The notes under the pieces were generated by a model, which saw only the letters and a program-made list of their open reading frames with translations, ran no database searches and had not been told where the DNA came from. From positions 9,362,001-9,426,000 of the forward strand of contig OZ076419.1 of assembly GCA_964187785.1 (NCBI GenBank): 64,000 bases of DNA, written 5' to 3'. Both the position numbers and the translations under genes were made by a program. Source of the stretch: Amphiscolops sp. MND2022 (lineage: Eukaryota). This document shows, piece by piece, positions 12,776 to 63,300 of the stretch (position 1 is its first letter; each line of letters starts with the position of its first letter).

Positions 12776-12847
12776 AGTCACCTCGACTACCATCATATTC
12801 TGATTATGGTCACACCATGAATAACTTCGCGCAAAGAATTTAATAGG

Positions 12848-16794: not shown

Positions 16795-16895
16795 AAAAAA
16801 GTTATTTTAGACGTTACTCTAGTGCAATACAGTGTTTTTAGATCTTATTCTACCAAAATACGGTGATTTTAGACGCTATTCTATCGAATAATTTT
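16795..16895 (+). repeat. Short patch of the 30-bp minisatellite
   Basis: About 3 units of GATTTTAGACGTTATTC..AAAATACGGT, the same as the 28436-29815 array. Confidence 0.7.
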
Positions 16896-29815: not shown

Positions 29816-29829
29816 AACAAAAATATGAA

Positions 29830-29940
29830 TCTAGACCATCTCCATCTAAAATTTCTGACAATCTTCCAAATTTGGACCATTTCCATCTAAAATTTCCGAC
29901 AATATTCCAAATTTGGACCATTTTCATCTAAAATTTATGA
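29830..29940 (+). repeat. Short ~41-bp tandem repeat (~2.5 units)
   Basis: GGACCATTTCCATCTAAAATTTCCGACAATATTCCAAATTT repeated. Confidence 0.75.
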
Positions 29941-30048
29941 AAATCTAACCTAAAAATTAAACACAAAGTCCTTTTTTCAAGCGGCTTCAGGAAACGCGGT
30001 ACCAAAAAGCGTCCTTGGTGCTAGCCGGGTCATTAATGTTACCCTGAT

Positions 30049-31806
30049 TGTCGCAGGCTGCCGCTTGCGATGGGACACGAATCACAACGACTACCAACGA
30101 GCAAGAAGCCGTACCAGGCACTTTACCCACATTTTAGGAGAATTATTCAAAACTTTCAGTAAAACTCACTGTTGTTTTATTACATTCATTATGTATTCGG
30201 ATTTTGGTTTTATACCGCAAAATGAATATTAGTCTGATTAATACCCGTGTTAGAATTCAAACGGTGATGATTATGTTTATATGATGAATTGTTTAGCAGT
30301 GACGTAATGTAATAAAGGCAAGTGTAAAGCTTAACGGATACGAGTTCAAGTGAACAAAACTCCAATTCCGGAGACGTCACTTGAGCTCATTCCGTCAGCC
30401 AATCATAACGCTCTATCCTGCTGTGCATTATACTGTCATATTTGTTTGGCCGTATACGGCCACTTGACGCTATACCTTATTTTGTAAGCGGACCAAAGGT
30501 AAATGGCCGGATTAGGCCATTCAAACTATTAGCTTATGTAATTGTTTAATTTGAGTATGCATGTTATTTAAAGTCATGTAGGATTATATTTGTATTTAGA
30601 AGGCGCTAATGGGGCTATTTAAACCCAATTGATGTAGTTGTGACCACCAGTCATGAAACTCTAAATACTAGTCCAGTGGACTAAACCGGTCACTTTAATT
30701 GGCTGGTACCTTTGTCAAATGGCCGAATTGGGCCACGCTCACCTTTTATTAGTGCATATAATTAGAGTTGCTACCTGATGAATTAGCCTGCGTGTGCAGG
30801 CACGTGCCTTAGATACCTCACATACCTGTTGACACAAATATTACTTGGAAGTGTCTGAACATGTATTTGCCTTGATGTTAATTGTTACGGGAATGCGGAC
30901 TAAACCGTCCCTCGTACTTTGAAGCTATCATGAGTATGTAATTGAGTACATTCTTCAGGAATTCTTCCGACCCTAAATTCCTGAATCACTTTGATGCAAT
31001 AGCTATTTTTCAATCCTCGTAAAATCTCATGATCCTTTAAAATATGTAAACATTTCAATAATATGTGGAAAATGTGAGTGTCATGCCTCAGGAGGTATAT
31101 ATATACACCCCCCTCCTGAGGGGACACAATTTGCTTTCTTTTCATAACGTTCAGTTCATTAATATTACCAGTTTTCCGAACTAATTCAATATTAACCTCG
31201 GACTTTCTTTCTAAATGCCTACTACTAGGAAACAGAAGAAAGCAAGGAAATCTAGAGAAGCAGAAATGCTATCAGACATTGAGAATTTGGATATTATGCT
31301 CGGAGGAAACCACTTTGATAGAAATGAGAGAAGTGAAAGTGTGAGTAGTAATCAGGCCGGTAGGCCAGAAAGCTTATTTGGAGATGAATTTGGAGATGAG
31401 AATGAGAATGAGTTCCCAAACCCGGGAAATAATGGACCTAGCCCAAATACCGAATTAGGCCAAAATTCAATCAGAGAGAGTTCAAGTGTTGAGATCAATA
31501 GACTGTCGAGTGAGTTAAATTCCCGTATATCTCGAGAGATGGATGAAATGATGAATAGCGTCAGTGTTCAGATTCAAAGGGCCATAAATGAGGCAATCAG
31601 TAGTCAAATTTTGCCTCAAATCCAAAATGCAGTTATGGCCGGGTCGGGACAGTTGACCAAAGAGAGATGGAACGTTCCGGCTGAGAGACCAGAAGGATAT
31701 TCCGAAGTGCTGCAAAACTTAGAACCTAGGAACAATTCTAAGAGTAAGCAGGCCAATGACCGTCTCAAAGTTGGATTCACAAGCACGAATTCTCGTGCTT
31801 ACGACA
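30049..31806 (+). repeat. 5' LTR of element A (1758 bp)
   Basis: Matches 43957-45716 with roughly a dozen substitutions and one 2-bp TA indel (by eye, ~99%). Confidence 0.95.
31086..31130 (+). promoter_or_regulatory. Candidate LTR core promoter: TATA-like run inside a 10-bp stem, followed by conserved GGACACAATT
   Basis: CCTCAGGAGG-TATATATATACACCCC-CCTCCTGAGG. The CCTGAG..GGACACAATT motif is also in the B LTRs and the solo LTR, about 85-100 nt before the gag ATG. Confidence 0.5.
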
Positions 31807-31818
31807 TGGTGACAGGAG
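31807..31818 (+). promoter_or_regulatory. Primer-binding site TGGTGACAGGAG
   Basis: Immediately follows the LTR end ACGACA; identical in B (62703-62714, minus strand). The priming tRNA cannot be identified without the host tRNA set. Confidence 0.85.
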
Positions 31819-32925
31819 AAAACGAATCTCCAATCGAAGTTCCTGAGTTTCTCACGGGACGAATGCCATCCACCAGTCATCTCAACAGATCAAATGATGA
31901 CCTTCCCCTGCTCGACACGACGATCCCGGCGCAAAAACGACCCGCTCTGGCACCAGAACAAGACCCGATCAACAGGCTAGCTGACGTCTTGACAAGTATG
32001 CAGAATCGCCCGACAGCCCAGCAACTCACAATCCGCCCAGTCAACTCAAACACTATGACGTTTGACGGCAAAAGTGAGAAGTTCGAGCTGTTTGAAGATT
32101 TATTCCATACGATGATCAAGATGCAGCCTGACATGACGGAACAAATGAAAATTAATCATTTTCATTCCTTGCTGAGAAAGAATGCACTCCAAACATTCAG
32201 AAACATCAGCACTGCAAATAGACAAACTCTTGAGGACGTACTCGTTATTTTCAGACGAAAATACGTCAAACCTGAATCACAGGCAACTGCCAAACATAAA
32301 TGGCACCGCGATCCTTCGATCCTAACACGACCAAATTGCCAGATTTTCTTGAGGAGCTCAATCAAGGAGCAGAAAAGGCCCTTGGAGACAATGCTCAGAA
32401 AATGATTGACAGTCTCCTATATGCCAAACTGCCACCAAAGCTCAAAAGATCAGTAAACATGGCTAGACTTGAGAATGGCTCGTACGATGAAATTGTCGCT
32501 CATCTAGAAAGAGAACTAGAATTGAATGCACTTGAAGAATCAGAAGACCTACCCATGGCGTCAATGACATCATCGGTCACGAAACCAAAAACTGTTCCTT
32601 CTAATACACAAATAAGTGATATTACGTGCAATTATTGTAAGGAAAAGGGCCACATGGTCAAAGATTGTGAAAAATTAAAAAAGAAAAAGGAAAAAGATGC
32701 CCAACAAGGCAAGACGACTCAGAAGAAGACCTATCCTAAATGTGGTACTTGTGGCAAGACGAACCATCCGGAGGAGAGATGTTGGCAAGGGGCAGGTGCG
32801 CACCTTAAACTTAAACGCACCAGACCAGAAGACTCGTCGGACAATGACCCCGACTCCAAAACCTTAAAATCGAACTACAGACCAGCATCTTCCAACAGCC
32901 AATCCTCATCAAGTAAAGATGAGTC

Positions 32926-32935
32926 AAAAAACTAG
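32926..32935 (+). promoter_or_regulatory. Programmed -1 ribosomal frameshift site A_AAA_AAC at the gag stop
   Basis: TCA AAA AAC TAG. The -1 frame (CTA at 32932) is open and in frame with the pol ATG at 33034. The same heptamer plus TAA is present in B (61588-61597). Confidence 0.85.
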
Positions 32936-33033
32936 CTTCGCCACGACTCCACTATGACCAACTAGTCTCTGTCCGACAATACATCAAATCGGACCCTCCA
33001 ACTAAAAACTTTCATAACTATCAGCAACAATTA

Positions 33034-36000
33034 ATGGGCTATCCTTCTGTTGTCTGGCAGCAGCAGATGGAAAAAGCTACCATTATTACTTACAATAATA
33101 CCCATTTGTTCCAGAAACCAATTCCTGTATGGGATCCTGATTACACATCTGCTTTCAATAGCCGATTCAGGCCCATTCCCTTGGTAGACGATTACAACCC
33201 TACCTACATAGACCCCGATTATGGACGAGATCCCTATTGGGACACGGAACTCTACAACCAAGATCTGCTACAATTCCAATACGTCATTGATGATATCGAA
33301 CTCTACAATAAATTAGCCCATGAAAATCCTCCAATCACCCACAACAAGAAAACTAGAGCATTGATTGAAACCTGGCAAATGAATGATGGCACAAGCCATC
33401 CGGTGTTCCCAAATCCCCTGGGGACCGAGACTACCGAAAACATGGAAGAAACAGTCCCACAGTCGCTATTAGATGAAAGTCAGTTCCAAAACGTTCTTAT
33501 TACCAGAGATGGTGAACCGGACTGCATACCCCTGTCCACCAACATAAATCTGAAATGCAAGAAACGCATGCTATATTTCCCCATGGATTTTGGGGAATTG
33601 ACCATAGACGGACTTATCGACACTGGTGCATTATCCAGTGCAATCCCAGAGATGGACCTCCGGAAAATCAGACTCTTATCGCCACAATCAGTAATCCGGG
33701 AAGGTCCGCCTCCAAACTTCCAGATAATGGTCGCAAATGGGCAACTAGAGACTCCCAAGAGTACAATAGAGCTCAAATTCGAAGTTGGTGACATAGAGTT
33801 CCATGAAATTTTTATAGTAATGGAACACTTGACAGGACCGATTATAGGACTGATGTTTCCACAGAGAAATCATACAGTACTGGACATGAGACAAGGAATA
33901 CTGAACTTTCCGTTCTTTTCAATGCAGCTCAAAACAGCTGATCATAAATACTCGAACGTGCTAGAGCCAATTCTAAACCCTACTGAAATAACCATTCCGC
34001 CAAACGACAGAGTCCTGATTAGGACCAATTCCTTCTTATACCCTGAAAACACGGTCACAGGAATTTTGCAACCGAGCGACCTTCTCCATGAAGAAGGCGA
34101 CATCACATTCTGTCCAGCCTTGGTCACCTTGAATGACGGCAATATATTGATACCGGTGAATAACTTCACAGACCACCCTTACAAGCTCAAAAAGGGACTC
34201 CATATTGCTAGTTTTTCAGTCATGACGCCAGAACAAATGAAATATGTCAAACCGGTAGACCCGGCATCAACCTGGCATTTGTTGCAAAACGACCAAGAGC
34301 AAGCAGCCCATTACGTCAGTAGCCTGATCAAGATGAACAAAAATTCACAAAACTCCGAAAACTACTGGTTCCCAACTCCGGAAAATCCAGGGAATCCAGA
34401 AGAACACACTCCAATCCAGAAAAGAATCCTCCGCGAACTACAAGCCCTACAGGACCTAGAATCCCTTGATCCCACGAAAGACGAGGAATCTAGGGGAAAA
34501 TTCTTGGGAAATTTTGATTGGAAAGACTCCACCCTAATCCTTGAAGAGAAAGCCAAAATTGAAGAAATGCTAGTGGAATTTCACGACATTTTTGCGAGAC
34601 ACAGATTTGATATAGGCATGAATGAGGAATTCAAGGTGAAATTGACGCCTAAGGACGATTCCCCAGCCTATAGCCAAAGCCTCCCTGCGCCAATAAACTT
34701 GAAAGAGGACATATTAGTCGAATTAGCCATGCTCCATAAATATGGCATAATAACTACTTTACCGTTCTCGAAATACGCCAGCCCAATATTCGCGCAAAAG
34801 AAACCAAATGGGAAACTGAGACTTCTGGTTGACTTGAGAAAAATCAACAACCTAATCTCTGATGATTATATAAACAATAACCACCCAGTCAGTACCTTAG
34901 TTGATGCCGCTCAACACTTAGCGGGGAAAAAACTGTTCTGTAAATTAGACTGTTCACAGGCATACCACTGCCTGCCGATGGCTGACCAGCGATCAATTGA
35001 AATGTTGGCCTTCAATTTCGCCAGCCGCACATTTGCCTACAGACGATTGGCACAAGGCCTTAGTAGGGCGCTGTCCGCATTCTCCAGTTTCATGAGGGAA
35101 TACCTCGACAAAGTCATAAAAGCGGATCAGTGTGCCCAGTACGTGGACGATATCGGCATCGCAGCCAACGACGCTGACCATCTCATTGCTAACCTAAGAG
35201 CAACTTTCAAATGCATTCAGGAAGCAGGCCTTAAATTGACGATGCACAAGTGTCATTTTGGTGCCACAGAAATTGATTTCCTCGGACGAACGATTACTCC
35301 ACAAGGCGTCAAACCCCAACGGCAGAACGTTCAGAATTTTCTAGAAAAAACCAAATTTCCAAAGTCGAAAAAGGTTTTGCAAAGATATTTGGGTTTCCTG
35401 AACTACTACCGAAACTACGTCCCAAGACTGTCCGAACGCCTTGCTCCATTCTACAAGATGCTGAAAAGTGACGAAAAAGTCCTAGTATCAAGAGAATTGG
35501 TACAGCAATTTGAGGAAATCAACCGAGCTCTGGACAAATGTTGCGACTTAGCCTTACAACAACCCATTCCTAACAAGCAGATTGCACTCATGACAGATGC
35601 AAGTTTCGGAGCTGCAGGATACGCAGTACTCATTGAAGATGACCCGAGTCAGAAATTCACGTCAATCCGCAAATCATATGCACCGGTCGCTTATGGTTCA
35701 AAAACCTTCACCCCAGCCCAGATAAAGATGTCAATTTATGCAAAAGAATTTCTTGCGATTTATTTCGCATTCAAAGAATTTGGGCATATTTTTTGGGGAG
35801 CGCCGAAACCGGTCATAATTCTAACCGACAACAAAGCCGTAACAAGATTCTTTCAGACGAAAGTCGTACCCCCAGCTCTGTGGAATGCATGCGACTATGT
35901 AATTCAGGTCAATTTTGTCATTGCGCACATCCCAGGAGCACAGAATACGGCAGCGGATTACTTGTCCCGATTGGAAGCAGACCCAAAGGACAAATTAGTA

Positions 36001-38139
36001 ATGAAAATCCGAGAAGATGTACAAACGTTGCCAATAGAAATAAACGTCCAATCAGCAGGAGTCTCACAGGAAGAGCATATCTTCTACACCAACGACGACG
36101 ATGAGACTGAAGAACAATATTGGGCGAGAAAAGAAGCAATCAGGAAAAATCCTGTAATCGAAGACCCTACAGTTACAATACAAACTCTTTCCACTAATTT
36201 AGCCAAACAACAACCTGAAATACAAGTCCGATTGAGGAAAACAAACCAGATAATTATTAAGCAATCCAAGGATGCAGTATTACAACACTTGAAGGCGAAA
36301 CTCCTTCATGAAGACTACTCAGAAAACATACTGCAACAGGACGCTCGGTACAGGCATTATGCTAACAATCTGGAACGAATTGTCATCAAAGAAGACATCC
36401 TCACAAGGCAATATTTTGATGAAAAAGGGAATTTAAAGTACCACCAAATCCTTCTCCCGCAACATTTGCTGCAGGAATTACTCCAGTCCTTACACGGGAC
36501 AGCTCACAACCATCCGGGTATTTCAAAAATGCTGCAGGAGATCAGACAGAGGTATTACTACCCTAACATGGCGAAATATGTTAAAAAGTGGGTAGAAGGG
36601 TTCGAACAATGCGCAAAGGACAAACGAGTCCCAAATGCAACAATCACGCCCGAGCTACTTAACTTGCCGGAATGGGACCTTGGACCCGAAGACGCAATGC
36701 AAATTGACTTATTGCCGAACCTTCCCCCAAGTGGAGGATATGAAAATGTATTAACCGCGATTGATGTCTTTTCTCGATATTTGTTTGCATATCCGCTCAC
36801 AGATGCATCAGCGATCAATGTAGCCAAAGCACTCATTGATATTATGACCAAACATTCCTACTTACCGACGACGCTCATTACGGACAAAGGAACTGCCTTC
36901 ACTTCCACGATTATTGCAAAAATTACCCAAGTTTTAGGAATTACCCTAAAATGTGCAACGACAAAGCACCCGCAAACTATCGGGAAATTGGAGCGCACAC
37001 ATGCCTCATTGAAAACAAACTTGAAAATGGCATGTGGGGAATATCGCCGACAATGGCACAAATACTTGCCATTAGCAGTTCTGAACCACAATACTAGTTA
37101 TCATGCCAGTATCGGATGTGAACCGACAAGAGTGTTCCATGGAAGAAGCCCATACAACATCTTGGATCACAAGCTTGGAACAAATCCAAACGAGCAAATC
37201 CATCCGACTACTGAATTCGCAGAAGAAATCCAAAATCGGACAAAGCTCCTTATCGACAAGACGAAGCAAAACATCATGCAGTCATATATCAAATATAAGG
37301 AGTATTACGATCGAAAAGCCAAAGCCGCCCCACTCAAGGAGGGCGATTACTGTTTTGTATTACAGCCAAAAGCGGATCACCAAGGATCCAAAATTCCCTT
37401 CAGAGATTATCGATGGGTTGGACCATTCATAGTCCAGAAAGCTTTACCTAATGAGAACTACATCGTCCGCAGACTTAATACGAATAAAACGCAGATCTTG
37501 CATCGAATTCGTCTCAAAAAGTTCGTTCCTAATCAGCCGCTCGAGGACAATTTTCGAGAAGAGAGATTGCAGCCGGACGAAGACATAATCATTCCACAGG
37601 ACGACTTATACGTAATAACGTGGGACACAAATTTTGGCGAACAGCTAGCTACACGAGGCAGCGAGCCGATTCCGGCTAGCTTGACGAATGGCGAACGGCC
37701 GAACACGGCACAAGCGAATACAAGTGATGCAAGCGAGAATGAAAGTGATTACATAATCACGACTGATTGTCCGAATGACGTCAACGACGCACCACGCAGT
37801 AGAAATGAAGAAATGGAAAATGACGTCAGCAATGCTAATGAAGCTAATGAAGCAAATGAAAATGAAAACCCTGATTGGCCAAATCCGGCCGTTCCCCCAA
37901 AGAATCAAGAAAAATCTCTGCCGAATACGGCTGAAGGATTGAAAAATGACAAAAACTTTCCAGAAAGAAATTCGATCAATGAAAGCGATGCACAAAAGTC
38001 TCCAAAAAGGGGGGACGATATTATCGTGCCCGAAATATCAGAAAATGATGCTAGAAATGAAAGTCTGAGCCCTAGAGGAGGGAAATATAATCTCAGGCCC
38101 AATCCTAATCCAAACTATTCAGAAGACTTCAGATACTAA
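33034..38139 (+). CDS. pol: pol polyprotein (1701 aa from the first ATG; true start is the frameshift at 32932): protease, dUTPase-like insert, RT, RNase H, integrase
   Basis: LIDTGA (33619); YVDD (35140); LMTDAS RNase H; integrase H-x-H..C (one Cys replaced by Phe, EGFEQC); core QIDLL..AIDVFSRY..TDKGTAF..LER; GPF motif RWVGPFIV. Confidence 0.97.
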   Translation: MGYPSVVWQQQMEKATIITYNNTHLFQKPIPVWDPDYTSAFNSRFRPIPLVDDYNPTYIDPDYGRDPYWDTELYNQDLLQFQYVIDDIELYNKLAHENPPITHNKKTRALIETWQMNDGTSHPVFPNPLGTETTENMEETVPQSLLDESQFQNVLITRDGEPDCIPLSTNINLKCKKRMLYFPMDFGELTIDGLIDTGALSSAIPEMDLRKIRLLSPQSVIREGPPPNFQIMVANGQLETPKSTIELKFEVGDIEFHEIFIVMEHLTGPIIGLMFPQRNHTVLDMRQGILNFPFFSMQLKTADHKYSNVLEPILNPTEITIPPNDRVLIRTNSFLYPENTVTGILQPSDLLHEEGDITFCPALVTLNDGNILIPVNNFTDHPYKLKKGLHIASFSVMTPEQMKYVKPVDPASTWHLLQNDQEQAAHYVSSLIKMNKNSQNSENYWFPTPENPGNPEEHTPIQKRILRELQALQDLESLDPTKDEESRGKFLGNFDWKDSTLILEEKAKIEEMLVEFHDIFARHRFDIGMNEEFKVKLTPKDDSPAYSQSLPAPINLKEDILVELAMLHKYGIITTLPFSKYASPIFAQKKPNGKLRLLVDLRKINNLISDDYINNNHPVSTLVDAAQHLAGKKLFCKLDCSQAYHCLPMADQRSIEMLAFNFASRTFAYRRLAQGLSRALSAFSSFMREYLDKVIKADQCAQYVDDIGIAANDADHLIANLRATFKCIQEAGLKLTMHKCHFGATEIDFLGRTITPQGVKPQRQNVQNFLEKTKFPKSKKVLQRYLGFLNYYRNYVPRLSERLAPFYKMLKSDEKVLVSRELVQQFEEINRALDKCCDLALQQPIPNKQIALMTDASFGAAGYAVLIEDDPSQKFTSIRKSYAPVAYGSKTFTPAQIKMSIYAKEFLAIYFAFKEFGHIFWGAPKPVIILTDNKAVTRFFQTKVVPPALWNACDYVIQVNFVIAHIPGAQNTAADYLSRLEADPKDKLVMKIREDVQTLPIEINVQSAGVSQEEHIFYTNDDDETEEQYWARKEAIRKNPVIEDPTVTIQTLSTNLAKQQPEIQVRLRKTNQIIIKQSKDAVLQHLKAKLLHEDYSENILQQDARYRHYANNLERIVIKEDILTRQYFDEKGNLKYHQILLPQHLLQELLQSLHGTAHNHPGISKMLQEIRQRYYYPNMAKYVKKWVEGFEQCAKDKRVPNATITPELLNLPEWDLGPEDAMQIDLLPNLPPSGGYENVLTAIDVFSRYLFAYPLTDASAINVAKALIDIMTKHSYLPTTLITDKGTAFTSTIIAKITQVLGITLKCATTKHPQTIGKLERTHASLKTNLKMACGEYRRQWHKYLPLAVLNHNTSYHASIGCEPTRVFHGRSPYNILDHKLGTNPNEQIHPTTEFAEEIQNRTKLLIDKTKQNIMQSYIKYKEYYDRKAKAAPLKEGDYCFVLQPKADHQGSKIPFRDYRWVGPFIVQKALPNENYIVRRLNTNKTQILHRIRLKKFVPNQPLEDNFREERLQPDEDIIIPQDDLYVITWDTNFGEQLATRGSEPIPASLTNGERPNTAQANTSDASENESDYIITTDCPNDVNDAPRSRNEEMENDVSNANEANEANENENPDWPNPAVPPKNQEKSLPNTAEGLKNDKNFPERNSINESDAQKSPKRGDDIIVPEISENDARNESLSPRGGKYNLRPNPNPNYSEDFRY

Positions 38140-38366
38140 GAATTGAATTTTCCCGGAAATGGGAATTCTTTTCTTTTAGCTTTGTTTTTCCAAGCCCCTC
38201 TGAGAACTTCTTTTGATTAAATACTGGGGCATTCCAAAGGATCCCTAATAAAGAATAAATATGGGATCAAATCATCAAGAAAACAAAGTAGAAATATAAA
38301 TACGGCAATAAAACAGAAGAAATTAACAAGTTTACAACATGGAAGTACATAAATACATATGTACAT

Positions 38367-41300
38367 TTACTCATTAGAACTTGATTGGGATCGTCTACCC
38401 GCTGTTGGAGAACTGGAAAATCCAACAAGGCTGCTGCTCTATGAGCTGCTCTATCAAATGATCTATGAGCCCTAAAAACTCATCTCGATAAATGAACTCA
38501 GCATCAACGGTTACCCAAGAACGAAGCTGGAATGTATTGTAGAGCAACTCGAAGTGACGTAAAGCAGAAGCAGGTGGTTGTTTGAATAACACAACAGGAT
38601 CGAAAGCAGCAAGTCCTTTGATGATGTGGGTGTTGAGCCCAGAATGCTTGTGTAATCCATCCAAAAGGTGGCCTATATACTTGAGTCCGTCTGTGATGAA
38701 CTCCTTCTGAAGTTCTTTGGCAGTCTTTTGAATAGCAGCCGCTTCGCTCTTCTTGCCCGAATGCAACCCCTCTGCCCTCTGTTTGCAAACGTGAGGAACT
38801 TTACTGGACAATCTGAGCCTGGTAAGGAAGTCGTCTCCGTCCATAAGGGTCCCGTCTGCTGATTTGAAAGAGAGCAAATCGAACCAAGAACCTTCGGCAG
38901 AGATTGTGTCCGCAGTGAATGCTCGAGAACAAATCCGATGTATGAAGCGGCTGGTCTCTCCACATACATAGAATGAGGCATCGCGGCGTTGGGCCAAGTT
39001 GACAGAGAACTGGATACGTCTACAAATACAAAACCATGCCCAAAATGGGATACTACCTCAACTTCTACACCTGACAATAGGTATACTAACAATCGTTGAC
39101 CAGCTTGGAGAAGAAATCCAACTTGATGGTGAGAAACTCATCACAAATGAGTGACCACTCGAAACTTTGCACCTGCAACAAAGAAATCAACTCAATGGGC
39201 ATTTGGTTGTCAGACCAAAGATGATCCACTACGGGGATTTAGGGATACTGTACATAGTGGTGCTACATGACAATTAAAGCGACGCAATTACTTACTCTAC
39301 CCCTCACGCCTTGTCCTTGTTGTCGAGGTGCATGTATTGTCAAAGACCTCTGTACAGCCTTCCATTCACGAATTAGTTCCAGACAGAGGACTGGCAAAGT
39401 CAATAGGTTCAACTTGCAGGTTCGTATACCCTAAACAAGACCTATGGTGTACTTACTATATCAATATCACTGATCCATAGCCCTCCACAACCTGAACCCG
39501 ATCAATACCCTACAGAAACCCGGATCATGCCTGTTCAGGGAAGAAAGAAATCACTTACATAGGATAATTCGGGACTCCGCATCGCCCATTCCTCCCTGAG
39601 AGAGCCTCCTAGAGAGATGACAAGCCCCCTTAACACTGAAAAGAAATCAATGTGTCCGAAGATAGAGCGACTGGACTTATGCATCAGAGTCTCTAAGGAA
39701 AATTGGCTGAATTGGAAACAGGACTGGACTCCCTTTGAGAAGTATTCCGATTGATCAACCACACGGATAAAATCGGCGGGACACCCAGAACTGGCGACTA
39801 TGTCCACTTTAGGCGAAATTGAGGACAACAACCGAGCCAGGGATCCCAATTCCCCGTTTAGATTTGGAGAAGGTAGCCCACTCCGACAGATGAAGACCCT
39901 GCATAAGGTGTTTTCCTTCCAAAACCGGACTGACATGAAGCGATAACTGCCCACGTCCTCGAACTCGAGCCCAAGGCATTGCTCCTTCGTGATGTGATTG
40001 GCTATGTCACCCAGAGCGCAGTTGAAGAAGTGTTGGAAAATGACCTGAAAAGGACATAAGGGAAATCAACTCCTGGATGTGACATAACCGCCTAAAACGG
40101 CAGCTTAACGATATGATACTTACAGAGAATCGCTCTGCACTCCAGTCAAAGTCACATAGTGCAGCCTGAAAGTCCGTGTATGAACTGACCCTCGTCCATA
40201 GATTCCGGAGAAGATCGCGAATCAGGCGTGACCAAGGGATCAGTTCTGCCTTTGATGAAGTCGTCATAAAAGGGGAATCGCTCCCCTATGTCAACTAATT
40301 CAGCATGTATGAAGCAAGGCATTTCTTTGGCCAACTCGAGCCTGTTCATGATTCGACCGTCTCGCCCTCTGACCCTATGTTGAACTTTCCCTGTGACTGG
40401 GTCTACGCTTTTCAAGTATTCATAGCGCCAGCGCTGGTCCTTGCGCAGATGTTTCTCAGTTCGGTGGTGACGAAGAATTTCCCCCGGGCCTTTGGAACGT
40501 ATGGAGAATTTCTTTTTACATATATGGCACCATACCATATGTGAATTGTGTAGCGGGTCTGCAGGTCCTGAGATAAAAGACCGGGTCCACCCAATTGTTG
40601 AGAAAAACTCTTCTCTCATTGGCACTCCTCGTCTCTTCACCCTTTTCTTCTTCTGAGGTTGTTTCTTCTTAGAGCCTGTATGGGTCTTTTCAGCAATGGC
40701 GTGATCCCTTACTTGCGACAAAGTTTCATCGAGACAATTGGCATCACTGGTATCAGGATTTTCCAGAGATCGACTAGAAGGCCCCGGTACTTCACTCGGA
40801 TCCTTAAGCATGGAAGTTCCTGCTCTGGCAAAGTTTTGCTCAATTAAAGCTAACTCCCCTGCACTGTCCGATTCCTCATGAAAGGACGTGTCACCTGATT
40901 CGGTTCCTCCACTCATTTCTGCGTCAGTCTGAGAATCATAGCGGACTGGGGTAGTGCACCCTTCGGAGCCACTATCTCCACTACTTGAAGGATAAGGCGT
41001 TTGTGCGCGCCTGAAAGTTTTGAATTGATCAGTCCGTGACTTGGACGTCGCTGGGGCTCCTTTCACTGCCGATACAACCATATGCTCCATCGTGTTATAA
41101 GACAAACTCACAGTCTCATTGGTGAGCACCCTAAGGAGGTGGTACAGCTGCGGTTCAGTAAGTGTTATTACGGGGTGACCCTGCGGCAAAGTAATGGGCT
41201 TGGCTTCTCCAAAATACTGTTTGAAAGTGGCTCTACTCCTTCCAGACAGGTTATGTAACTTGGGACCAGTGACCCCAAGCTGGGAGGAGGAAGTCCCAGG

Positions 41301-42182
41301 GACCTGTGGGTCCTGGATGCCAAAATCGGATTCCTGCGTCTCTTCTGCAACTGAGTCCATGCTTCTCAATGTGTCCCGGTAACCATACAAATCTATCTGT
41401 TGATCACTACTCTCGTTCAACTGGTCCAACTCACCATAGTCAGAGACGTATGTTGTCGCTGTGACTGTTCCAGGCAACGGGGGGGCATCGTGGACAGAGG
41501 AACTGTTGTCTTCGTCTTGCTGGAGGAATGACACCTTACTTGTCTCATTGGGAACTCCTTCAACAGGCAGCAATTCCGGCAAGGTTGCATCAGGAGGCCC
41601 AGCAATCTCAAGCCCTGATTCCAATTGAGACAAACTAACTGTGGGGACTGTGCAACTGGCGTGGGGTATTGGAGTGCTAGACCGGGTGATTGGCATGTCT
41701 GCAGACAACTCAGTGCCGTGGGAGGCCTTCACTGCGCCCTCTCGCCTAACTTCTACTTTTTCTTCCACTATCTCGTTAGACAACTGCGTTTTCTGCATAT
41801 GTTCGACCATCTCGTCTGCATACGCCGTAACGTCAATGTTACTGTCTACGCTATGTGGGGAGATGACCTCAGCAACTTGATCCTGGCCCGAACGTTCAGA
41901 TGATTGGGAATTGGAATTGAGTCCTTGAGACTCAACTGATGGACCTACTAGTGGGGGTAGGATCCTGGTAATCTGGGAAGAAGAAACCAATGGAGGAAAT
42001 GGAGGGGGAGAAGGAACCAAGTTTCGAGTTGTACCCGGAACGGGAACGGAATACATGGATGAAATAACTTCGGTGGGATTGGCGGAAGCAGGGTTGGTTG
42101 GTGTATGAGAATCATCTAAATTCTGGCGATCTAAACACAAAGAGATGAAATTTGGCGGTATGCTTCCTCGATAGAAATCCAT
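38367..42182 (-). pseudogene. Antisense spliced accessory gene of element A (disordered N-terminus, NLS, BED-like zinc finger, hAT-transposase-like body), damaged by deletions
   Basis: ORFs 40152-42242, 40007-40267, 39535-39954 and 38395-38997 are collinear and homologous with B ORFs at 52205-56349. Conserved start MDF(Y/F)xGSxPPNFI; introns at 40045-40123 and 39173-39295. Confidence 0.8.
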
Positions 42183-43253
42183 TTGCCGCGTCAGAAGACT
42201 TCCGGAAGCAGTCTTGAAAATTTGAATGAAACGTGCTATCACGTGTTCTCTGATGGAAACAGGAAGCGCTTAATGAACGAAATTTAGCCCTGATCAAGCC
42301 AAGTTAGTTCAAAATAAAAATCCAGACCAACCTGTATTCGAAGACATCCTGCTGAGATAATTGAATCCACTGAGGATCTACCCAAATTCGGATGAGAAAA
42401 TTGGGGATGATGGCCGGACTGGGACAACAGATGGGGAGGAGGCTCGGATGGCTACAGAGAATGAAGGAGAAGTCCACAACTGTTCTGGAGCCCCAGGTAG
42501 ATAAAAGGACTAGCAAAAGGTATAAGAATCGAGTATAAAGGAATTCGAATGGTAATGGTAGTACAAATGAAATAAATAAGCAATGGAAGAAATGAAAGTT
42601 AGAGATCGTGGCTGAAGGTTTACCAGACTAATTTTATTTGATTATCTACATATTTAAATCTGTACACGGAGTCTGCCAGCGAAATATACAGGGCGTATCT
42701 CGCTATTTACAACCTTGTTACAATTAGTGGCCGATTATGGCCGTTTACCCCAACTTATGTTGCCGTTTTGTTCAGTTTTCCTAGTTACCTTAGTTAGATT
42801 TTCGCCATTTTAGTTATTCAAACTTATTATTTTCCGCCATCTTTATTATTCATTTTTCCAAATTTATCGAAGCTCAAATTTGATTGGCTGAAGCCATTTC
42901 AGTGAGTTTCATCCGACAAGTGCCGTTAATTGCTATCAAGCTTGATGTTGATTACCCACTTGAAGTGGAATTATTTGTTGTTGTCAACTTAACACCTCTT
43001 CGCATACTCACTTGAGAGAGTGAGAAAGGGGGTTCCATTCCGAATTTCAAAGGACAAATAAGCCGCTGAGATATTCCATTCTAGAAAGTTTACGACGGAT
43101 CAGGGCGATTGACCATGGTCTCTCCCGCCGAAATGGAACTCCGGGAAAATAGCCTGAATTGGCCTGAAGAAAATTTTGACAAATTCATTCAACTTTGAAT
43201 CCTGCAAGCAACAAGTCGCTCTGCGAATCAACAAAATTGCAAAAAAGATAATA

Positions 43254-44045
43254 ATGGCTAAATTTAACTTAGCAAGAAAGCTTTTCGACTTAGAAGAATC
43301 GGACTCAGAAGCCTCCGTAAATTCAGTCATCTACCTATCGAGTGACGAGGAGGAAGACACCTCATCTACCTCATGGGATTCCGATTGGTCCACGGACACC
43401 GAGGCTATCATAGAGAGAATCGAGAGGGAAGTTAAGTCAAGCCCAATTTTGATCGCAGGTCGCAAGATGACTGTGGAGGGGCAGGCTACAGAATCAGCAG
43501 CTGGACCAAGTAATCTTCAAATGCGGCCGCCTTCGATTCCGAAATTGGGATTCAAACACTTTGACGAGAAACTCCTGTATGCGCCGATGAGGAAGGCAGA
43601 AAGAACCCGGATAGAACTTTGCAACACAATTCTACCAGTGTTGGAATCGCCGTTGTCTCCGCCCGAACATGAGAGAGGGCCGTCCCAAGACGTGCTCATG
43701 GAACAGCCAGTTAGCACCAGCTTCCACGCATCTTACCACATCCAACAAGTACAGCCGTATTCGGATCTTAGTAAACAGTTGGGCCGTGGATGTATGGTCT
43801 GTGGAAGATCAGTGGACGAAATTAAACAAGAGAAGGTGAATTGGTACATGAGCAGATCTACAACGCGCAGTGAACCGGCATACATAACGGACTTGAGGAG
43901 AGAGGCCTACGAAAATGGTCTACATGCCGGAAGTCTTCTTTTCCTAGCACCCGCAGTGTCGCAGGCTGCCGCTTGCGATGGGACACGAATCAATACGACT
44001 ACCAACGAGCAAGAAGCCGTACCAGGCACTTTACCCACATTTTAG
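43254..44045 (+). CDS. ORF3 of element A (~263 aa, unknown function), last ~29 codons inside U3
   Basis: Intact frame with a homologue intact in B (50348-51133). Acidic VIYLSSDEEED and WDSDWSTDTE blocks, plus FHASYHI..CMVC. Confidence 0.8.
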   Translation: MAKFNLARKLFDLEESDSEASVNSVIYLSSDEEEDTSSTSWDSDWSTDTEAIIERIEREVKSSPILIAGRKMTVEGQATESAAGPSNLQMRPPSIPKLGFKHFDEKLLYAPMRKAERTRIELCNTILPVLESPLSPPEHERGPSQDVLMEQPVSTSFHASYHIQQVQPYSDLSKQLGRGCMVCGRSVDEIKQEKVNWYMSRSTTRSEPAYITDLRREAYENGLHAGSLLFLAPAVSQAAACDGTRINTTTNEQEAVPGTLPTF

Positions 44046-45716
44046 GAGAATTATTCAAAACTTTCAGTAAAACTCACTGTTGTTTTATTACATTCATTAT
44101 GTATTCGGATTATGGTTTTATACCGCAAAATGAATATTAGTCTGATTAATACCCGTGTTAGAATTCAAACGGTGATGATTATGTTTATATGATGAATTGT
44201 TTAGCAGTGACGTAATGTAATAAAGGCAAGTGTAAAGCTTAACGGAAACGAGTTCAAGTGAACAAAACTCCAATTCCGGAGACGTCACTTGAGCTCATTC
44301 CGTCAGCCAATCAGAACGCTCTATCCTGCTGTGCATTATACTGTCATATTTGTTTGGCCGCATACGGCCACTTGACGCTATACCTTATTTTGTAAGCGGA
44401 CCAAAGGTAAATGGCCGGATTAGGCCATTCCAACTATTAGCTTATGTAATTGTTTAATTTGAGTATGCATGTTATTTAAAGTCATGTAGGATTGTATTTG
44501 TATTTAGAAGGCGCTAATGGGGCTATTTAAACCCAATTGATGTAGTTGTGACCACCAGTCATGAAACTCTAAATACTAGTCCAGTGGACTAAACCGGTCA
44601 CTTTAATTGGCTGGTACCTTTGTCAAATGGCCGAATTGGGCCACGCTCACCTTTTATTAGTGCATATAATTAGAGTTGCTACCTGATGAATTAGCCTGCG
44701 TGTGCAGGCACGTGCCTTAGATACCTCACATACCTGTTGACACAAATATTACTTTGAAGTGTCTGAACATGTATTTGCCTTGATGTTAATTGTTACGGGA
44801 ATGCGGACTAAACCGTCCCCCGTACTTTGAAGCTATCATGAGTATGTAATTGAGTACATTCTTCAGGAATTCTTCCGACCCTAAATTCCTGAATCACTTT
44901 GATGCAATAGCTATTTTTCAATCCTCGTAAAATCTCATGATCCTTTAAAATATGTAAACATTTCAATAATATGTGGAAAATGTGAGTGTCATGCCTCAGG
45001 AGGTATATATATATACACCCCCCTCCTGAGGGGACACAATTTGCTTTCTTTTCATAACGTTCAGTTCATTAATATTACCAGTTTTCCGAACTAATTCAAT
45101 ATTAACCTCGGACTTTCTTTCTAAATGCCTACTACTAGGAAACAGAAGAAAGCAAGGAAATCTAGAGAAGCAGAAATGCTATCAGACATTGAGAATTTGG
45201 ATATTATGCTCGGAGGAAACCACTTTGATAGAAATGAGAGAAGTGAAAGTGTGAATAGTAATCAGGCCGGTAGGCCAGAAAGCTTATTTGGAGATGAATT
45301 TGGAGATGAGAATGAGAATGAGTTCCCAAACCCGGGAAATAATGGACCTAGCCCAAATACCGAATTAGGCCAAAATTCAATCAGAGAGAGTTCAAGTGTT
45401 GAGATCAATAGACTGTCGAGTGAGTTAAATTCCCGTATATCTCGAGAGATGGATGAAATGATGAATAGCGTCAGTGTTCAGATTCAAAGGGCCATAAATG
45501 AGGCAATCAGTAGTCAAATTTTGCCTCAAATCCAAAATGCAGTTATGGCCGGGTCGGGACAGTTGACCAAAGAGAGATGGAACGTTCCGGCTGAGAGACC
45601 AGAAGGATATTCCGAAGTGCTGCAAAACTTAGAACCTAGGAACAATTCTAAGAGTAAGCAGGCCAATGACCGTCTCAAAGACGGATTCACAAGCACGAAT
45701 TCTCGTGCTTACGACA
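43957..45716 (+). repeat. 3' LTR of element A (1760 bp), including a 204-aa gag-N-terminus ORF (45125-45739) that runs into the flank
   Basis: Starts TGTCGCAGGCTGCC and ends ACGACA, followed by TSD CTGAT. Confidence 0.95.
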
Positions 45717-45769
45717 CTGATATAGATACAGACTTCTAATTCAGGTGTTATTCAAAAAAGACACAAAAT

Positions 45770-59500: not shown

Positions 59501-61597
59501 TTTGATGACTTTGTCGAGGTATTCACTCATGAAGCTCGAAAACGCGGACAGAGCCCGGCTAAGGCCTTGTGCCAAACGTCTGTTAGCAAATGTGCGACTG
59601 GCGAAGTTAAAGGCCAACATTTCAATCGATCGTTGGTCAGCCATCGGTAGGCAATAGTATGCCTGTGAGCAGTCTAATTTACAGAACAGTTTTTTGCCCG
59701 CTAAATGTTGGGCGGCGTCGACTAAAGTACTGACGGGGTGATTATTGTTTATGTAATCATCGGATATGAGGTTGTTGATTTTTCTCAAGTCAACCAAGAG
59801 TCTGAGTTTTCCGTTCAGTTTCTTTTGTGCGATTATTGGACTCGCATATTTCGAGAACGGTAGGGTGGTGATGATGCCATATTTGTGTAACATGGCCAGT
59901 TCGACTAAGATGTCCTCCTTCAGGTTGATAGGGGCTGGGAGGCTCTGACTATAGGCTGGGGAATTGTCCTTGGGTGTCAATTTCACCTTGAATTCTTCGT
60001 TCATGCCTATGTCAAATCTGTGTCGTGCAAATATATCATGGAATTCCACTTGTAAATCCTCAATTTTCTCCATTTCTTCAGAAGTAAGGGTGGAATCTTT
60101 CCAATCAAAGTTTTCTGGGAAATTTGCACGAGATTCTTCATCTTTGGTGGGATCGAGTGTCTCCAAGTCCTGTAAGGCCTGTAGTTTGCGTAGAATTCTT
60201 TTCTGGATGGGTGTGTGTTTCTCAGGGTTTCCAGGGTTTTCTGGGGTTGGGAACCAGTAATTTACGGAATTTTGAGGATTTCTGTTCGTCTTGATGAGGC
60301 TGCTGACATAATGGGCTGCCTGCTCTTGGTCATTTTGCGAAAAGTGCCAGGTTAAACCGGGTCTACCGGTTTGCCATATTTCATCTGTTCTGGCGTCATG
60401 ACTGAGAAATTGGCAATATGAAGTCCCTTTTCAAGTATATAAGGGTGTTCTGTGAATTTATTCATAGGTATCGATATACTGCCATCATTTAGAGTGACCA
60501 AGGCTGGACAAAATGTGATGTCGCTTTCTTCATGTAGGAGGTCGCTCGGTTGCAAAATCCCAGTAACCGCATTCTCAGGATAGAGTAAGGAATTGGTCCC
60601 AATTAGGACTCTATCGTTTGGCGGAATTGTTATCTCAGTGGGGTTGAGAATTGGTTCTAGTACGTTAGAATATTTGTGGTCAGCTGTTTAAAGCTGCATT
60701 GAAAAGAACGGGGAATTCAGGATTCCTCGTCTCATGTCCAAGACTGTATGATTTCTCTGAAGGAACATTAGTCCAATGATCGGTCCTGTCAAATGTTCCA
60801 TTACTATGAAGATTTCATGGAACTCAATGTCACCAACTTCGCATTTGAGCTCTATGGTACTCTTGGGAGTTTCCAGTTGCCCATTAGCGACCATGATTTG
60901 GAAGTTCGGAGGCGGACCCTCTCGGATAACATATTGTGGAGATAGAAGACGGATTTTCCGGAGGTCCATTTCAGGAATTGCACTGAAGAGGGCCCCAGTG
61001 TCTATGAGTCCAAAAATGGTCAGTTCCCCAATGTCCATTGGGAAATAAAGCATGCGTTTATCGCATTTGAGGTTTTTGTTGGTTGACAGGGGTATACAGT
61101 CTGGTTCACCGTCTTTGGTTATGAGTTCATTCTGGAATTGTTTCTCGTCTAACAGTGATTGTGGTATGGATTCGGTAGTGTTTTCAGGATTCTCGGTTCC
61201 CATGGGGTTTGAGAACACTGGGTGGTGTTGAATTGCCATCATCCTTGAATTGCAAGAGGTCCTGGTTATAAATGTCGGTGTCCCAATAAGGATCTCTGCC
61301 ATAGCCTGGGTCGATGTATGTTGGATTGTAATCATCGATCAGGGGAATGGGCCTGAACCGGGTTGTGAAGGTAGTTGTATAATCAGGATCCCAAAGAGGA
61401 ATTCGTTTCTGGAACAAATAGGTGTTATTGTAGGTAATGATGGTAGCTTTTTCCATCTGTTGCTGCCAGATAACAGAGGGATAGCCCATCAATTGCTGAT
61501 TGTATTGATGGAAGGTTTGCGTTGGAGTGTCCGATCTGATGTATTGTCGGACAGATATTAGTTCGTTGTATTGGATTCGTAGCGAAGTTAGTTTTTT
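56573..61597 (-). pseudogene. pol: pol of element B, multiply frameshifted
   Basis: Fragments with LIDTGA, QYVDD, LMTDAS, EGCEEC, QIDLLP..TDKGTAF, RWVGPFIV and the terminal YNLRPNPNPNYSEDFRY. Confidence 0.93.
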
Positions 61598-63300
61598 GAC
61601 TCATCGTTGGAAGATGAGGATTGGGAGCTTGATGATGTCTGCTTGTTCTGAGGTTTCTGAGCCTTTGGGTTGGGCTTATTGTCAGTTGAGTCCTCAGGCC
61701 TAGTGCGTTTGGGTTTAAGATGCGCACCTGCACCTTGCCAACATCTTTCTTCCGGCTGGTTCTTTTTGCCACAAGTGCCTCACCCCGGATATGTTTTCTG
61801 CTGAGTCGATTTGCCTTGTTGGGCATCTTTCTCTTTTTTCTTTTTCAATTTCTCACAGTCCCTGACCATGTGGCCTTTTTCCTTGCAGTAATTGCAAGTG
61901 ATGTCCGACATTTGCCCAGTGGTGAGAAGGGTTTTGGGCTTGGCGGATGAGGAAGTCATTGTTGCCATTGGTAGGTCGTCTGACTCCTCAAGGGCGTTAA
62001 GCTCCAGTTCTCTCTCCAAATGAGCGACTATCTCATCGTATGAGCTATTTTCCAATCTGGCCATATTGGCGGATCGTTTCAATTTTGGTGGCAGTTTTGC
62101 GTAACGCAAGCTGTCAATCATTTTCTGTGCATGGTCGCCAAACGCCTTTTCTGCCCCTTGATTTAATTCTTCAAGGAAATCAGGCAGTTTCATTGTATTG
62201 GGATCAAAGACAAGACGGTGCCATTTATGTTTGGCGGTTGTCTGTGATTCAGGTTTGACGTATTTTCGTCGGAAAATGACTAGTACGTCTTCGAGGGTTT
62301 GGCGATTTGTCGAAATGATGTTTTTGAACGTTTGGAGAGCATTTTTCCTCAATAGTGTATTAAAATGGTTAATTTTCTTTTGCTCAGTCATTTTTGGCTG
62401 CATCTTGATCATAGTGTGGAAGAGATCTTCGAACAGCTCAAATTTCTCACTTTTGCAATCGAAAGTCATGGTATTGGAGTTGACAGGGCGTATTGTGAGT
62501 TGTTGAGCTGTAGGTCCATTCTGCATCGTAGTCAAGACGTCGGCCAATCTGGTAATGGGGTCAGGATCTGCAGCTGTAGCGATTCTCTCATGCGCTGGGA
62601 TCGTCGTGTCAAGGTTGATGTCCTCATAGTACTGATTGAGATGAGTTCTTGATGGGATACGTCCTGTGAGAAACTCAGGAACCTGATTGGGAGATTCGTT
62701 GTCTCCTGTCACCATGTCATGAACATTTAGATCAGGGTAATCATTGTTTAACTCATTCTCATCCTGTTCATTTCTCAAGTTGTTCTTTGCGTTTAGGTTT
62801 CGCTGAACTTCGGAACTTAGTTCCGGTCTCTCAGACGGAACGTCCCATCCTTTTCTGGTCCCGTGTCCCGATCCGGCCATAATAACATTTTGGATCTGAG
62901 GAAGCACCTGAGTGCATATTGCATCACTTATGGCCCTTTGTATCTGGTCACTTAGCGAATTCATCATCTCGTCCATTCCTCGTGAAATGCGGGAATTTAA
63001 TTCGCTTGACAACATATTTATCTCAGCACTAGAATTACCAGTAACTGAATTGCAATCACATTCGGTATTTGTCCTAGAGTTAACATTTCTCTGGTTTCCA
63101 CCTATGTTCCCATCCTCATTTTCGGATTCATTGCTTGCAAAGCTTCTAGGTCTCCTGAGCAAATTACTATTCAAACTGCCTTCTCTTTCTCTAGTGTTAA
63201 AATGGTTCTCACCTAGCATGATATCTAAATTCTCGATGTCAGATAACATTTCCAGTCCTCTTTACTTCCTTGCCTTCTTCTGTTTTCTAGTGGTTGGCAT
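61588..63300 (-). pseudogene. gag: gag of element B with one premature stop (TGT>TGA at the second zinc knuckle, ~61780)
   Basis: ATG at 63300 (MPTTRKQKKARK) in frame with ORF 61780-63249. The frame continues past the TGA to ESKN-TAA at 61588. Confidence 0.9.

What the first reader, a model, noticed from the sequence alone, without database searches (positions are those of the whole stretch)
30049..45716. A ~15.7-kb Gypsy family with a four-gene, bidirectional, virus-like genome plan
Seen in two independent, diverged copies (A and B): long LTRs coding at both ends, gag, -1 frameshift, pol, then ~5.8 kb holding an antisense spliced gene and a sense ORF3 arranged head to head. Neither accessory product has a signal peptide or transmembrane pattern, so neither looks like Env. 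Known: typical Gypsy elements have gag-pol with or without env; antisense accessory ORFs are described mainly in some plant Tat/Ogre-type elements. Inference: a complex metazoan retroelement with regulatory accessory proteins. I cannot confirm novelty without a search.
Basis: partly seen in the sequence, partly recalled or inferred. Interest (0 to 1): 0.88.

Follow-up and report, generated by a model that had tools for sequence, protein, structure and literature searches.

The report
Retrotransposon carrying a tamed DNA transposase
An abundant, recently active family of animal copy-and-paste jumping genes carries an extra backwards gene under strong selection, likely spliced, whose protein is predicted to be a disabled cut-and-paste transposase that the element likely reuses to control its own promoters.

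Summary
Window 30049-45716 is a 15.7-kb Gypsy-type element with 1.76-kb LTRs (99% identical), a 5-bp TSD, a tRNA-Leu PBS, gag, an A_AAA_AAC slip site, pol, an antisense gene and a sense ORF3. It is no one-off: 20 of 20 copies picked by integrase alone carry the antisense gene, and a distant clade keeps the same plan. The antisense gene has five predicted exons (about 1,210-1,270 aa) with conserved GT-AG sites; both extra genes are under purifying selection. Its product has a C2H2 finger, then a predicted RNase H fold best covered by the Hermes hAT transposase (Z 7.0, middling), without the second catalytic Asp or the CxxH His. Sequence methods do not detect the hAT link. Spaced palindromes recur in U3 and between the head-to-head genes and differ between the two clades. 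Best reading: a dead DNA transposase domesticated by a retrotransposon as a DNA-binding regulator of itself (inferred; no RNA or binding data). The main clade also lacks a polypurine tract. Plant Retand/Grande elements carry antisense ORFs too; I found no animal, intron-bearing, hAT-like case in ten paper searches.

The parts
30044..30048 (.). Left 5-bp target-site duplication CTGAT (right copy 45717-45721)
30049..31806 (+). 5' LTR, 1758 bp, TG...CA; its 3' third encodes the first ~197 codons of gag
30346..30384 (.). Conserved inverted repeat TCAAGTGA...TCACTTGA in U3 (also 44254-44292; copy B 50085-50123)
30448..30734 (.). Three GGCC-N6-GGCC spaced palindromes in U3 (30448, 30505, 30721; repeated at 44356, 44413, 44629); candidate binding sites (inferred)
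31094..31104 (+). TATA-like box upstream of the gag ATG (promoter role inferred)
31215..32935 (+). gag (capsid-like region, two Cys/His knuckles); broken near 32,300 in this copy
31807..31818 (+). PBS TGGTGACAGGAG, complementary to the 3' end of a host tRNA-Leu(CAG); lies inside the gag frame
32926..32935 (+). A_AAA_AAC slip heptamer plus gag stop; pol in the -1 frame
32923..38139 (+). pol frame, 1738 aa, PR-RT-RH-IN
38395..39019 (-). Antisense exon 4 (about 390 aa in other copies, helical); broken and internally deleted in this copy
39091..39172 (-). Antisense exon 3, 82 nt (predicted)
   Evidence: intron-less relatives P0126, P0200
39559..40044 (-). Antisense exon 2, 162 codons; predicted RNase H-like core
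40124..42130 (-). Antisense exon 1: long acidic low-complexity part, then CxxC...HxxxxxH finger and helical region
42332..42347 (-). Antisense exon 0: ATG plus 13 nt before a conserved donor (predicted start)
42348..43253 (.). Region between the head-to-head genes, with one GGCC-N6-GGCC site (42729-42742) and other conserved motifs; likely bidirectional promoter (inferred)
43254..44045 (+). ORF3, 263 aa from its ATG: acidic N-terminus with SIM-like motif (label recalled), conserved His and CxxC; ends inside the 3' LTR
43948..43956 (+). Position of the expected PPT: CACCCGCAG, not purine-rich but fixed at synonymous sites
43957..45716 (+). 3' LTR
48712..64000 (-). Copy B, a diverged and decayed member with the same plan; its 5' LTR starts at about 64438, beyond the window

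Best explanation
This is an abundant, recently active animal Gypsy lineage that stably carries two extra genes under purifying selection, of which the antisense one is likely spliced and is predicted to encode a catalytically dead, hAT-like DNA transposase that likely binds palindromic sites in the element's own LTR and internal promoter to keep it transcribed. Shown: the architecture, its spread over the family, selection on both extra genes, conserved GT-AG sites and conserved cis motifs. Inferred: a DNA transposon or a transposase-derived gene once landed antisense inside an ancestral element. Because the packaged RNA is the sense strand, antisense introns are not spliced out of it and so survive each round of copying. 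The transposase lost its cutting residues but kept its zinc finger and fold, and now acts as a sequence-specific activator or anti-silencer. ORF3, read from the same divergent promoter, would be a second nuclear helper, perhaps through SUMO binding (weakest step). Odds by step: splicing about 0.95; DDE-transposase origin about 0.7; catalytically dead if so about 0.85; self-directed regulator about 0.5.
For: Spread: 1652 DNA and 6957 protein candidates in G000 (not copy numbers); 20 of 20 copies picked by integrase carry exons 2 and 4 antisense to pol; nine copies of a distant clade (exon 4 about 26-31% identical, integrase 81-83%) were fetched and show the same plan, one of them without its LTR pair or ORF3 resolved. 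Activity: exact 5-bp TSDs in 19 of 30 elements examined; about 115 of the 150 best integrase hits lie in unbroken pol frames of 1731 aa or more (counted by eye, biased to intact copies). Selection: synonymous sites near saturation (pS 0.76-0.84) against pN 0.15-0.29 in the conserved antisense exons and 0.24 in ORF3; dN/dS 0.03-0.12 in the few unsaturated pairs; shifted-frame controls 1.3-3.4. Splicing: donor 1 GT in 39 of 39 copies where the anchor was found (42 examined), exon 2 exactly 162 codons in 25 of 25 measurable; exon 0 donor in 44 of 45, ATG 16 nt before it in 42 of 45, phase-matched AG in 44 of 45 (51 examined); natural relatives P0126 and P0200 read exon 3 into exon 4 without the intron. 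Transposase origin: exon 2 model (pLDDT 71) has RNase H topology; Hermes chains give the longest structural matches, 102-136 residues, Z 6.9-7.0, best rmsd 2.7, ahead of integrases (about 80 residues), with the IS256/Mutator transposase ISCth4 next; for exon 4, 10 of the ten best Atlas hits with a family share the hAT family or clan, score 0.87. Dead enzyme: strand 1 has an invariant Glu (48 of 48), the end of strand 4 has no conserved acid, and the CxxH position reads CxxF (Hermes residues from PMC2533014 and PMC4763223, passages). Cis sites: GGCC-N(5-7)-GGCC 30 times in 11 of 11 main-clade U3s (0.05 expected) and 12 times in 11 of 12 internal regions (0.14 expected), 0 in the distant clade, whose U3s instead carry GGAC-N5-GTCC in 6 of 6. 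Precedent for dead transposases as sequence-specific regulators: bioRxiv 10.64898/2026.08.24.746577 (abstract and passages); VANC, PMC5735166 (abstract).
Against: No sequence-level link to hAT: no hAT Pfam family in 47 exon-4 proteins or 40 distant relatives, no match of exon profiles to hAT frames of the same genome by HMMER or hhalign, and zf-BED only at E 0.59 in 1 of 19. Z 7.0 is tied with an Argonaute (7.2) and integrases (6.9) and lies under the level the tool calls clear; Foldseek E for Hermes is 0.03; the Atlas score is under 0.9. The exon 4 model is poor (pLDDT 49), so the third catalytic position could not be placed. The catalytic mapping rests on topology and aligned ranges, not on a residue-level superposition. 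The motif-versus-protein change is one contrast between two clades, so it does not show co-evolution, and the sites may bind host factors. ORF3 and the antisense gene are exchanged between main-clade subfamilies (ORF3 94-97% identical while exon 2 is 58-66%), which argues against tight one-to-one specificity. No expression or binding data.
Confidence: 0.5

Rival explanations
1. The antisense gene is a captured host or unknown-virus gene with a generic RNase H-like fold, not a transposase, and serves some other step.
For: No Pfam, HMMER or hhalign link to hAT; Argonaute and integrase tie with Hermes on Z.
Against: Hermes and ISCth4 alone cover the helix before strand 1 and the part after strand 5; finger-helix-core-long helical tail is the hAT order; the Atlas points to the hAT clan from a different exon. 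All 29 copies located by exon-4 searches and fetched lie beside pol of this lineage.
Confidence: 0.2
2. The protein is transposase-derived but works after transcription: it binds the cDNA or LTR in the pre-integration complex for nuclear entry or target choice.
For: Sites lie in U3, present on the cDNA; basic stretches at the ends of exons 1 and 4; this role is proposed for plant antisense ORFs (PMC7264820, passages).
Against: The same site sits between the head-to-head genes and U3 sites lie about 300-700 bp inside the LTR, near promoter motifs; TSDs show no obvious target sequence.
Confidence: 0.15
3. The RNase H-like domain is still a nuclease with altered chemistry, for example making the plus-strand primer in an element that lacks a PPT.
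For: No purine tract before the 3' LTR in 40 of 40 main-clade copies, yet the bases there are fixed; invariant Glu in strand 1, Cys near the second position in 40 of 48; Hermes D248C keeps some activity with Mn2+ (PMC2533014, passage).
Against: One acid only in the modelled core; the His of CxxH is missing; the distant clade has a 7-8 nt purine run and still keeps the gene; pol has its own RNase H.
Confidence: 0.08
4. The two divergent genes are a toxin-antidote or other drive pair that favours carriers, unrelated to the replication cycle.
For: Two conserved genes head to head, dispensable for the core enzymes; very high copy load.
Against: ORF3 of one type is paired with at least five antisense types; no toxin-like domain found.
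Confidence: 0.05

Closest known systems
[quoted passage not shown]
   Same: Gypsy-type; long pol-3' LTR region (2.9-6.6 kb in Retand, 5.8 kb here); antisense ORF in most copies; nuclear or DNA-binding role proposed; Retand's domain is named 'transposase 28'.
   Different: Animal host; no TRP28 Pfam hit; five predicted exons ('intron' does not occur in the main text of either paper); predicted whole hAT-like layout; second, sense gene from a shared divergent region; those papers state that plant aORFs show no similarity to other TEs.
hAT transposases (Hermes; Tip100/ZMYM1/FAM200-type by the Atlas)
   Same: N-terminal Cys/His finger, helix, RNase H core and long helical region in the same order (predicted).
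   Different: Second Asp and CxxH His absent, no hATC Pfam hit, about 500 aa acidic N-terminal extension, and the gene travels inside a retrotransposon.
TE-encoded sequence-specific regulators: Spm TnpA, VANDAL VANC, domesticated FAR1/MUG (bioRxiv 10.64898/2026.08.24.746577, PMC5735166)
   Same: Proposed working principle: a TE-encoded, in part transposase-derived protein binds short motifs in its own non-coding DNA; motifs change between related TEs.
   Different: Those serve DNA transposons or the host in plants; the preprint's main text holds no 'retrotransposon' or 'LTR'. Here the role is inferred only.
Complex retroviruses with antisense and U3-overlapping genes (HTLV-1 HBZ from PMC11963269; nef, sag and Ty1's LTR-overlapping gag recalled)
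   Same: Antisense gene 3' of pol, gene overlapping U3, -1 frameshift, tRNA primer.
   Different: No env; RT is Gypsy/Ty3-like; accessory gene looks transposase-derived; the gag overlap with the LTR is about 197 codons.

Membership tests
Ty3/Gypsy LTR retrotransposon | LTRs with TG...CA ends and a short TSD | tested here: met
   (exact 5-bp TSD in 19 of 30 elements)
Ty3/Gypsy LTR retrotransposon | tRNA primer-binding site after the 5' LTR | tested here: met
   12-nt match to the end of a tRNA-Leu(CAG) gene of G000
Ty3/Gypsy LTR retrotransposon | pol order PR-RT-RH-IN | tested here: met
Ty3/Gypsy LTR retrotransposon | RT falls in a named Gypsy clade | tested here: inconclusive
   Closest solved RTs are foamy virus, Ty3 and caulimovirus at E 1e-27 to 7e-26; no GyDB/Repbase references on hand for a tree
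Ty3/Gypsy LTR retrotransposon | Polypurine tract before the 3' LTR | tested here: not met
   Longest purine run 2-6 nt and not adjacent in 40 main-clade copies; 7-8 nt run in 8 distant-clade copies
BEL/Pao | Pao-type Pfam domains in pol (criterion recalled) | tested here: not met
   No such family at E<=1; gag hits DUF1759 only below its cut-off
Env-bearing Gypsy (errantivirus) | Sense ORF3 with transmembrane anchor | tested here: not met
   ORF3 maximal hydropathy 0.6-1.47, no Pfam hit
hAT transposase | N-terminal BED-type zinc finger | tested here: inconclusive
   CxxC...HxxxxxH conserved; zf-BED E 0.59 in 1 of 19
hAT transposase | RNase H core followed by a helical insertion | tested here: inconclusive
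   Predicted RNase H topology; Hermes Z 7.0, 102-136 aligned, tied with other RNase H folds
hAT transposase | DDE triad and CxxH motif | tested here: not met
   Glu in strand 1, no acid at strand 4 end, CxxF; third position not locatable
hAT transposase | C-terminal dimerisation domain (PF05699) | tested here: not met
   0 of 47 and 0 of 40 proteins; genuine hATs of G000 do score
hAT transposase | Gene flanked by short TIRs and 8-bp TSD | not tested
   Only repeats of 40 nt or more were sought; none listed within the accessory region
Retand/Tat antisense-aORF elements | [quoted passage not shown] | tested here: met
   20 of 20 integrase-picked copies
Retand/Tat antisense-aORF elements | TRP28 (PF04195) domain and plant host | tested here: not met
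   No hit; host has Wnt genes

The most novel reading that the evidence does not exclude
A retrotransposon lineage has domesticated a class II transposase, introns included, as its own sequence-specific transactivator or anti-silencer; protein and target palindromes have diverged together between clades, ORF3 counters SUMO-dependent silencing, and the main clade primes its plus strand without a polypurine tract. This toolkit would help explain why the lineage has reached thousands of copies.
Probability: 0.35. Interest if true: 0.9.

Novelty: new variant of a known kind. Interest (0 to 1): 0.75.

Why it matters
The origin and job of antisense extra ORFs in LTR retrotransposons are stated as unknown in PMC7264820 and PMC11963269, and insertion of another TE was set aside there for lack of similarity. 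This family offers a case where the origin is predicted (a DDE transposase) and the target sites are named, so the regulator idea can be tested directly with two clades as reciprocal controls. It would extend transposase domestication from hosts and DNA transposons to retrotransposons, and it shows a successful LTR lineage with no recognisable polypurine tract.

Tried and rejected
No RNA holder was listed, so no reads were laid; this is no evidence on expression. The two-chain fold of exon 2 with exon 4 gave no verdict. The exon 4 model was low-confidence and its fold searches uninformative. A search for longer (spliced or fused) relatives found none among 7986 candidates (weak). PDB sequence searches with exon profiles gave nothing. 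DUF4371 rang nowhere in G000 or the controls. HMMER and hhalign against 14 hAT frames of G000 scored no better than shuffled columns; a Tip100-type hAT query listed 30 matches, which I did not see fall on the known antisense-gene places but did not cross-check by script. The Atlas result for ORF3 was weak (recognition 1375; piggyBac-type hits likely reflect acidic composition). No stable hairpin follows the slip site (-2.5 to -8 kcal/mol over 60 nt); no Rfam match. Ten cluster look-ups gave no names. Three look-ups in earlier findings were empty. Rejected: one-off capture, chance antisense frames, Env, the long frame's own ATG as start (its first 17 codons fit an intron end). Paper searches (two were for Hermes residues) showed no description of this family; Repbase, Dfam, GyDB and most subscription papers were not searchable, and the repeat supplement of PMC9911081 was not read.
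Full report
OBSERVATION. Self-comparison of the window shows two LTR pairs: 30049-31806 / 43957-45716 at 99.0% and 48712-49998 / 62715-64000 at 97.9%, the second on the minus strand and 80% identical to the first over pol. Copy A has TG...CA ends, the TSD CTGAT and the PBS TGGTGACAGGAG, which pairs with the 3' end of a tRNA-Leu(CAG) gene of G000 (1 of 4 loci was called a tRNA). gag begins inside the 5' LTR, pol holds PR, RT, RNase H and integrase in Gypsy order, and A_AAA_AAC plus stop ends gag in 26 of 26 copies where the anchor was found (31 examined), with pol in the -1 frame in 25. Copy A is damaged in gag and in the antisense gene and copy B throughout, so the plan was read from other copies.

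A FAMILY, NOT A ONE-OFF. G000 is a 1.07-Gb animal genome (Wnt hits); the host was not identified. Searches returned 1652 candidates for the ORF3 region, 6957 for exon 4 and 24554 for the integrase core, of which only the best 40-150 are scored, so these are not copy numbers. I fetched 20 copies by ORF3-region DNA, 20 by exon 4 and 9 of a distant clade; these samples are biased toward having the region. As an unbiased check, every seventh of the best integrase hits was fetched: 20 of 20 carry exons 2 and 4 antisense to pol, 18 with an open 400-411 aa exon-4 frame and 2 not scored by my pattern; ORF3 was not within those stretches. Resolved elements are 15.5-16.5 kb, 19 of 30 with an exact 5-bp TSD and most LTR pairs 98-99.9% identical. 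The distant clade has integrase 81-83%, exon 2 35-43%, exon 4 26-31% and ORF3 31-39% identity to the main clade, so the plan is old. P0200 has no match above 31% in G000, so the family likely extends to another genome.

THE ANTISENSE GENE. Protein conservation stops at GT and resumes after pyrimidine-rich AG. Donor 1: GT in 39 of 39 anchored copies; acceptor 1: AG in 35 of 35; donor 2: GT in 31 of 31; acceptor 2: AG in 35 of 37; donor 3, 82 nt later: GT in 35 of 37 (42 examined). Intron 1 is 69-85 nt and intron 2 212-386 nt, while exon 2 is 162 codons in all 25 measurable copies. An extra 16-nt first exon is predicted: donor in 44 of 45, ATG at the fixed distance in 42, phase-matched acceptor in 44. 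Exon 1 is open and in the right phase in 20 of 44 copies. Two natural relatives read exon 3 into exon 4 without the intron. Among 14 diverged copies (near-identical pairs dropped) synonymous sites are near saturation while pN is 0.15 (finger region), 0.24 (exon 2), 0.29 (exon 4), 0.42 (acidic N-terminus) and 0.24 (ORF3); shifted frames give ratios of 1.3-3.4. Antisense orientation explains how introns persist, since the packaged sense RNA is not spliced at them (inference from established LTR replication).

WHAT THE PROTEIN IS. Exon 1 ends in a conserved CxxC...HxxxxxH finger. Exon 2 folds (pLDDT 71, 95 sequences) as helix, three strands, helix, strand, helix, strand: an RNase H core. Hermes chains align over 102-136 residues (Z 6.9-7.0; model 1-109 on Hermes 153-265 at rmsd 2.7), ISCth4 over 98-102 (Z up to 6.8), integrases over about 80 (Z up to 6.9) and an Argonaute over 91 (Z 7.2); Foldseek gives Hermes the highest query TM-score listed (0.42) at E 0.03. 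Independently, the Atlas places exon 4 beside hAT, DUF4371 and FAM200 clusters at 0.87, a lead only. Against this, Pfam, HMMER and hhalign find no hAT link although genuine hATs abound in G000. Hermes needs D180, D248, E572 and the CxxH His (PMC2533014 and PMC4763223, passages). Here strand 1 has Glu in 48 of 48 rows, the end of strand 4 reads Ala-Cys-Ser-Gly in most, and the residue aligned with the end of the Hermes range is followed by Arg-Phe with no His. I read this as a dead DDE transposase of the hAT/Mutator group, hAT best (about 0.7).

CIS SITES. GGCC-N(5-7)-GGCC occurs 30 times in 11 of 11 main-clade U3 regions (0.05 expected from shuffles) and once or twice between the head-to-head genes in 11 of 12 (0.14 expected); one more lies near the pol end. 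The distant clade has none in 6 U3 and 4 internal regions, but GGAC-N5-GTCC in 6 of 6 U3s and GACC-N3-GGTC in 4 of 4 internal regions (found by ranking all spaced palindromes, without a shuffle control). This is a single contrast between kin groups. The internal region and first intron also keep motifs resembling YY1, CCAAT, ETS and E-box sites (labels recalled), which fits a bidirectional promoter.

ORF3 AND THE MISSING PPT. ORF3 has no family and no transmembrane stretch. It keeps a His, a CxxC and a later Cys, and a hydrophobic-acidic motif like a SUMO-interacting motif (label recalled) in 31 of 34 main-clade and 6 of 8 distant-clade frames. ORF3 and the antisense gene are swapped among main-clade subfamilies. 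No purine tract precedes the 3' LTR in 40 main-clade copies, yet the third codon positions there are fixed in 13-14 of 14 copies against about half at fourfold sites further off, which suggests an unusual primer or att signal; a T-rich box upstream of PPTs is known to matter elsewhere (PMC10085805, passage).

MECHANISM AND COMPARISON. Best reading (0.5): the retrotransposon domesticated a DNA transposase as a self-directed DNA-binding regulator. Dead transposases acting as sequence-specific regulators are described for plant DNA transposons and hosts (bioRxiv 10.64898/2026.08.24.746577, abstract and passages; PMC5735166, abstract). Antisense ORFs of unknown origin are a hallmark of plant Retand/Grande and fungal Boty elements (PMC11963269, passages; PMC7264820, passages and sections 5-6). 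The element is a Gypsy by structure, except for the PPT; the gene is not a member of the working hAT family, since catalytic features were tested and not met, but is likely derived from one. Paper searches listed no animal element with an intron-bearing transposase-like antisense gene; for most listed papers I saw only the listing, PMC8220671, PMC13486581 and PMC9911081 as passages, and repeat databases could not be searched, so the family may exist there unannotated.

VERDICT. Real, conserved and unusual: a new variant of a known kind, interest 0.75. Architecture and selection are shown; splicing is strongly inferred; transposase origin is probable; the regulatory role is a testable inference.

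Noticed in passing
window ~12400-14517 (-): Solo-LTR-like piece of the same lineage: begins with the family's LTR start at 14517 and matches the LTR-borne gag part at 70-75%; no TSD found.
   Followed up: partly
window 17047-23552: Tandem array of a ~350-bp A-rich unit, about 18 copies at 75-90% identity.
   Followed up: no
window 28423-29852: Higher-order tandem array (31-bp subunits in 149/180-bp blocks) just left of copy A; a related 95-bp piece lies at 16787-16881.
   Followed up: no
window 45790-47139: Inverted arms of ~228 bp (86%) between copies A and B, MITE-like; 46156-46326 also matches 16489-16659 at 98%.
   Followed up: no
window 25509-27148 and 6478-6778/10967-11267: A ~480-bp tandem repeat, and a 301-bp direct repeat at 97% around a T-rich stretch with domain-less frames.
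   Followed up: no
G000:C8:35587798-35640385: Large tandem array of tRNA-Leu-like 3' ends with ~296-bp spacing; 847 matches genome-wide to the primer tRNA pattern.
   Followed up: no
L094-L099, L102: G000 holds several hAT transposon families with long open transposase frames of 419-697 aa.
   Followed up: partly
L022, L024, L030/L050, L040/L060: Rearranged or tandem copies with internal duplications or shared LTRs.
   Followed up: no
pol versus accessory region across copies: RT is 98% identical with pS 0.52 where the accessory genes have saturated synonymous sites, which suggests frequent exchange of pol among subfamilies.
   Followed up: partly
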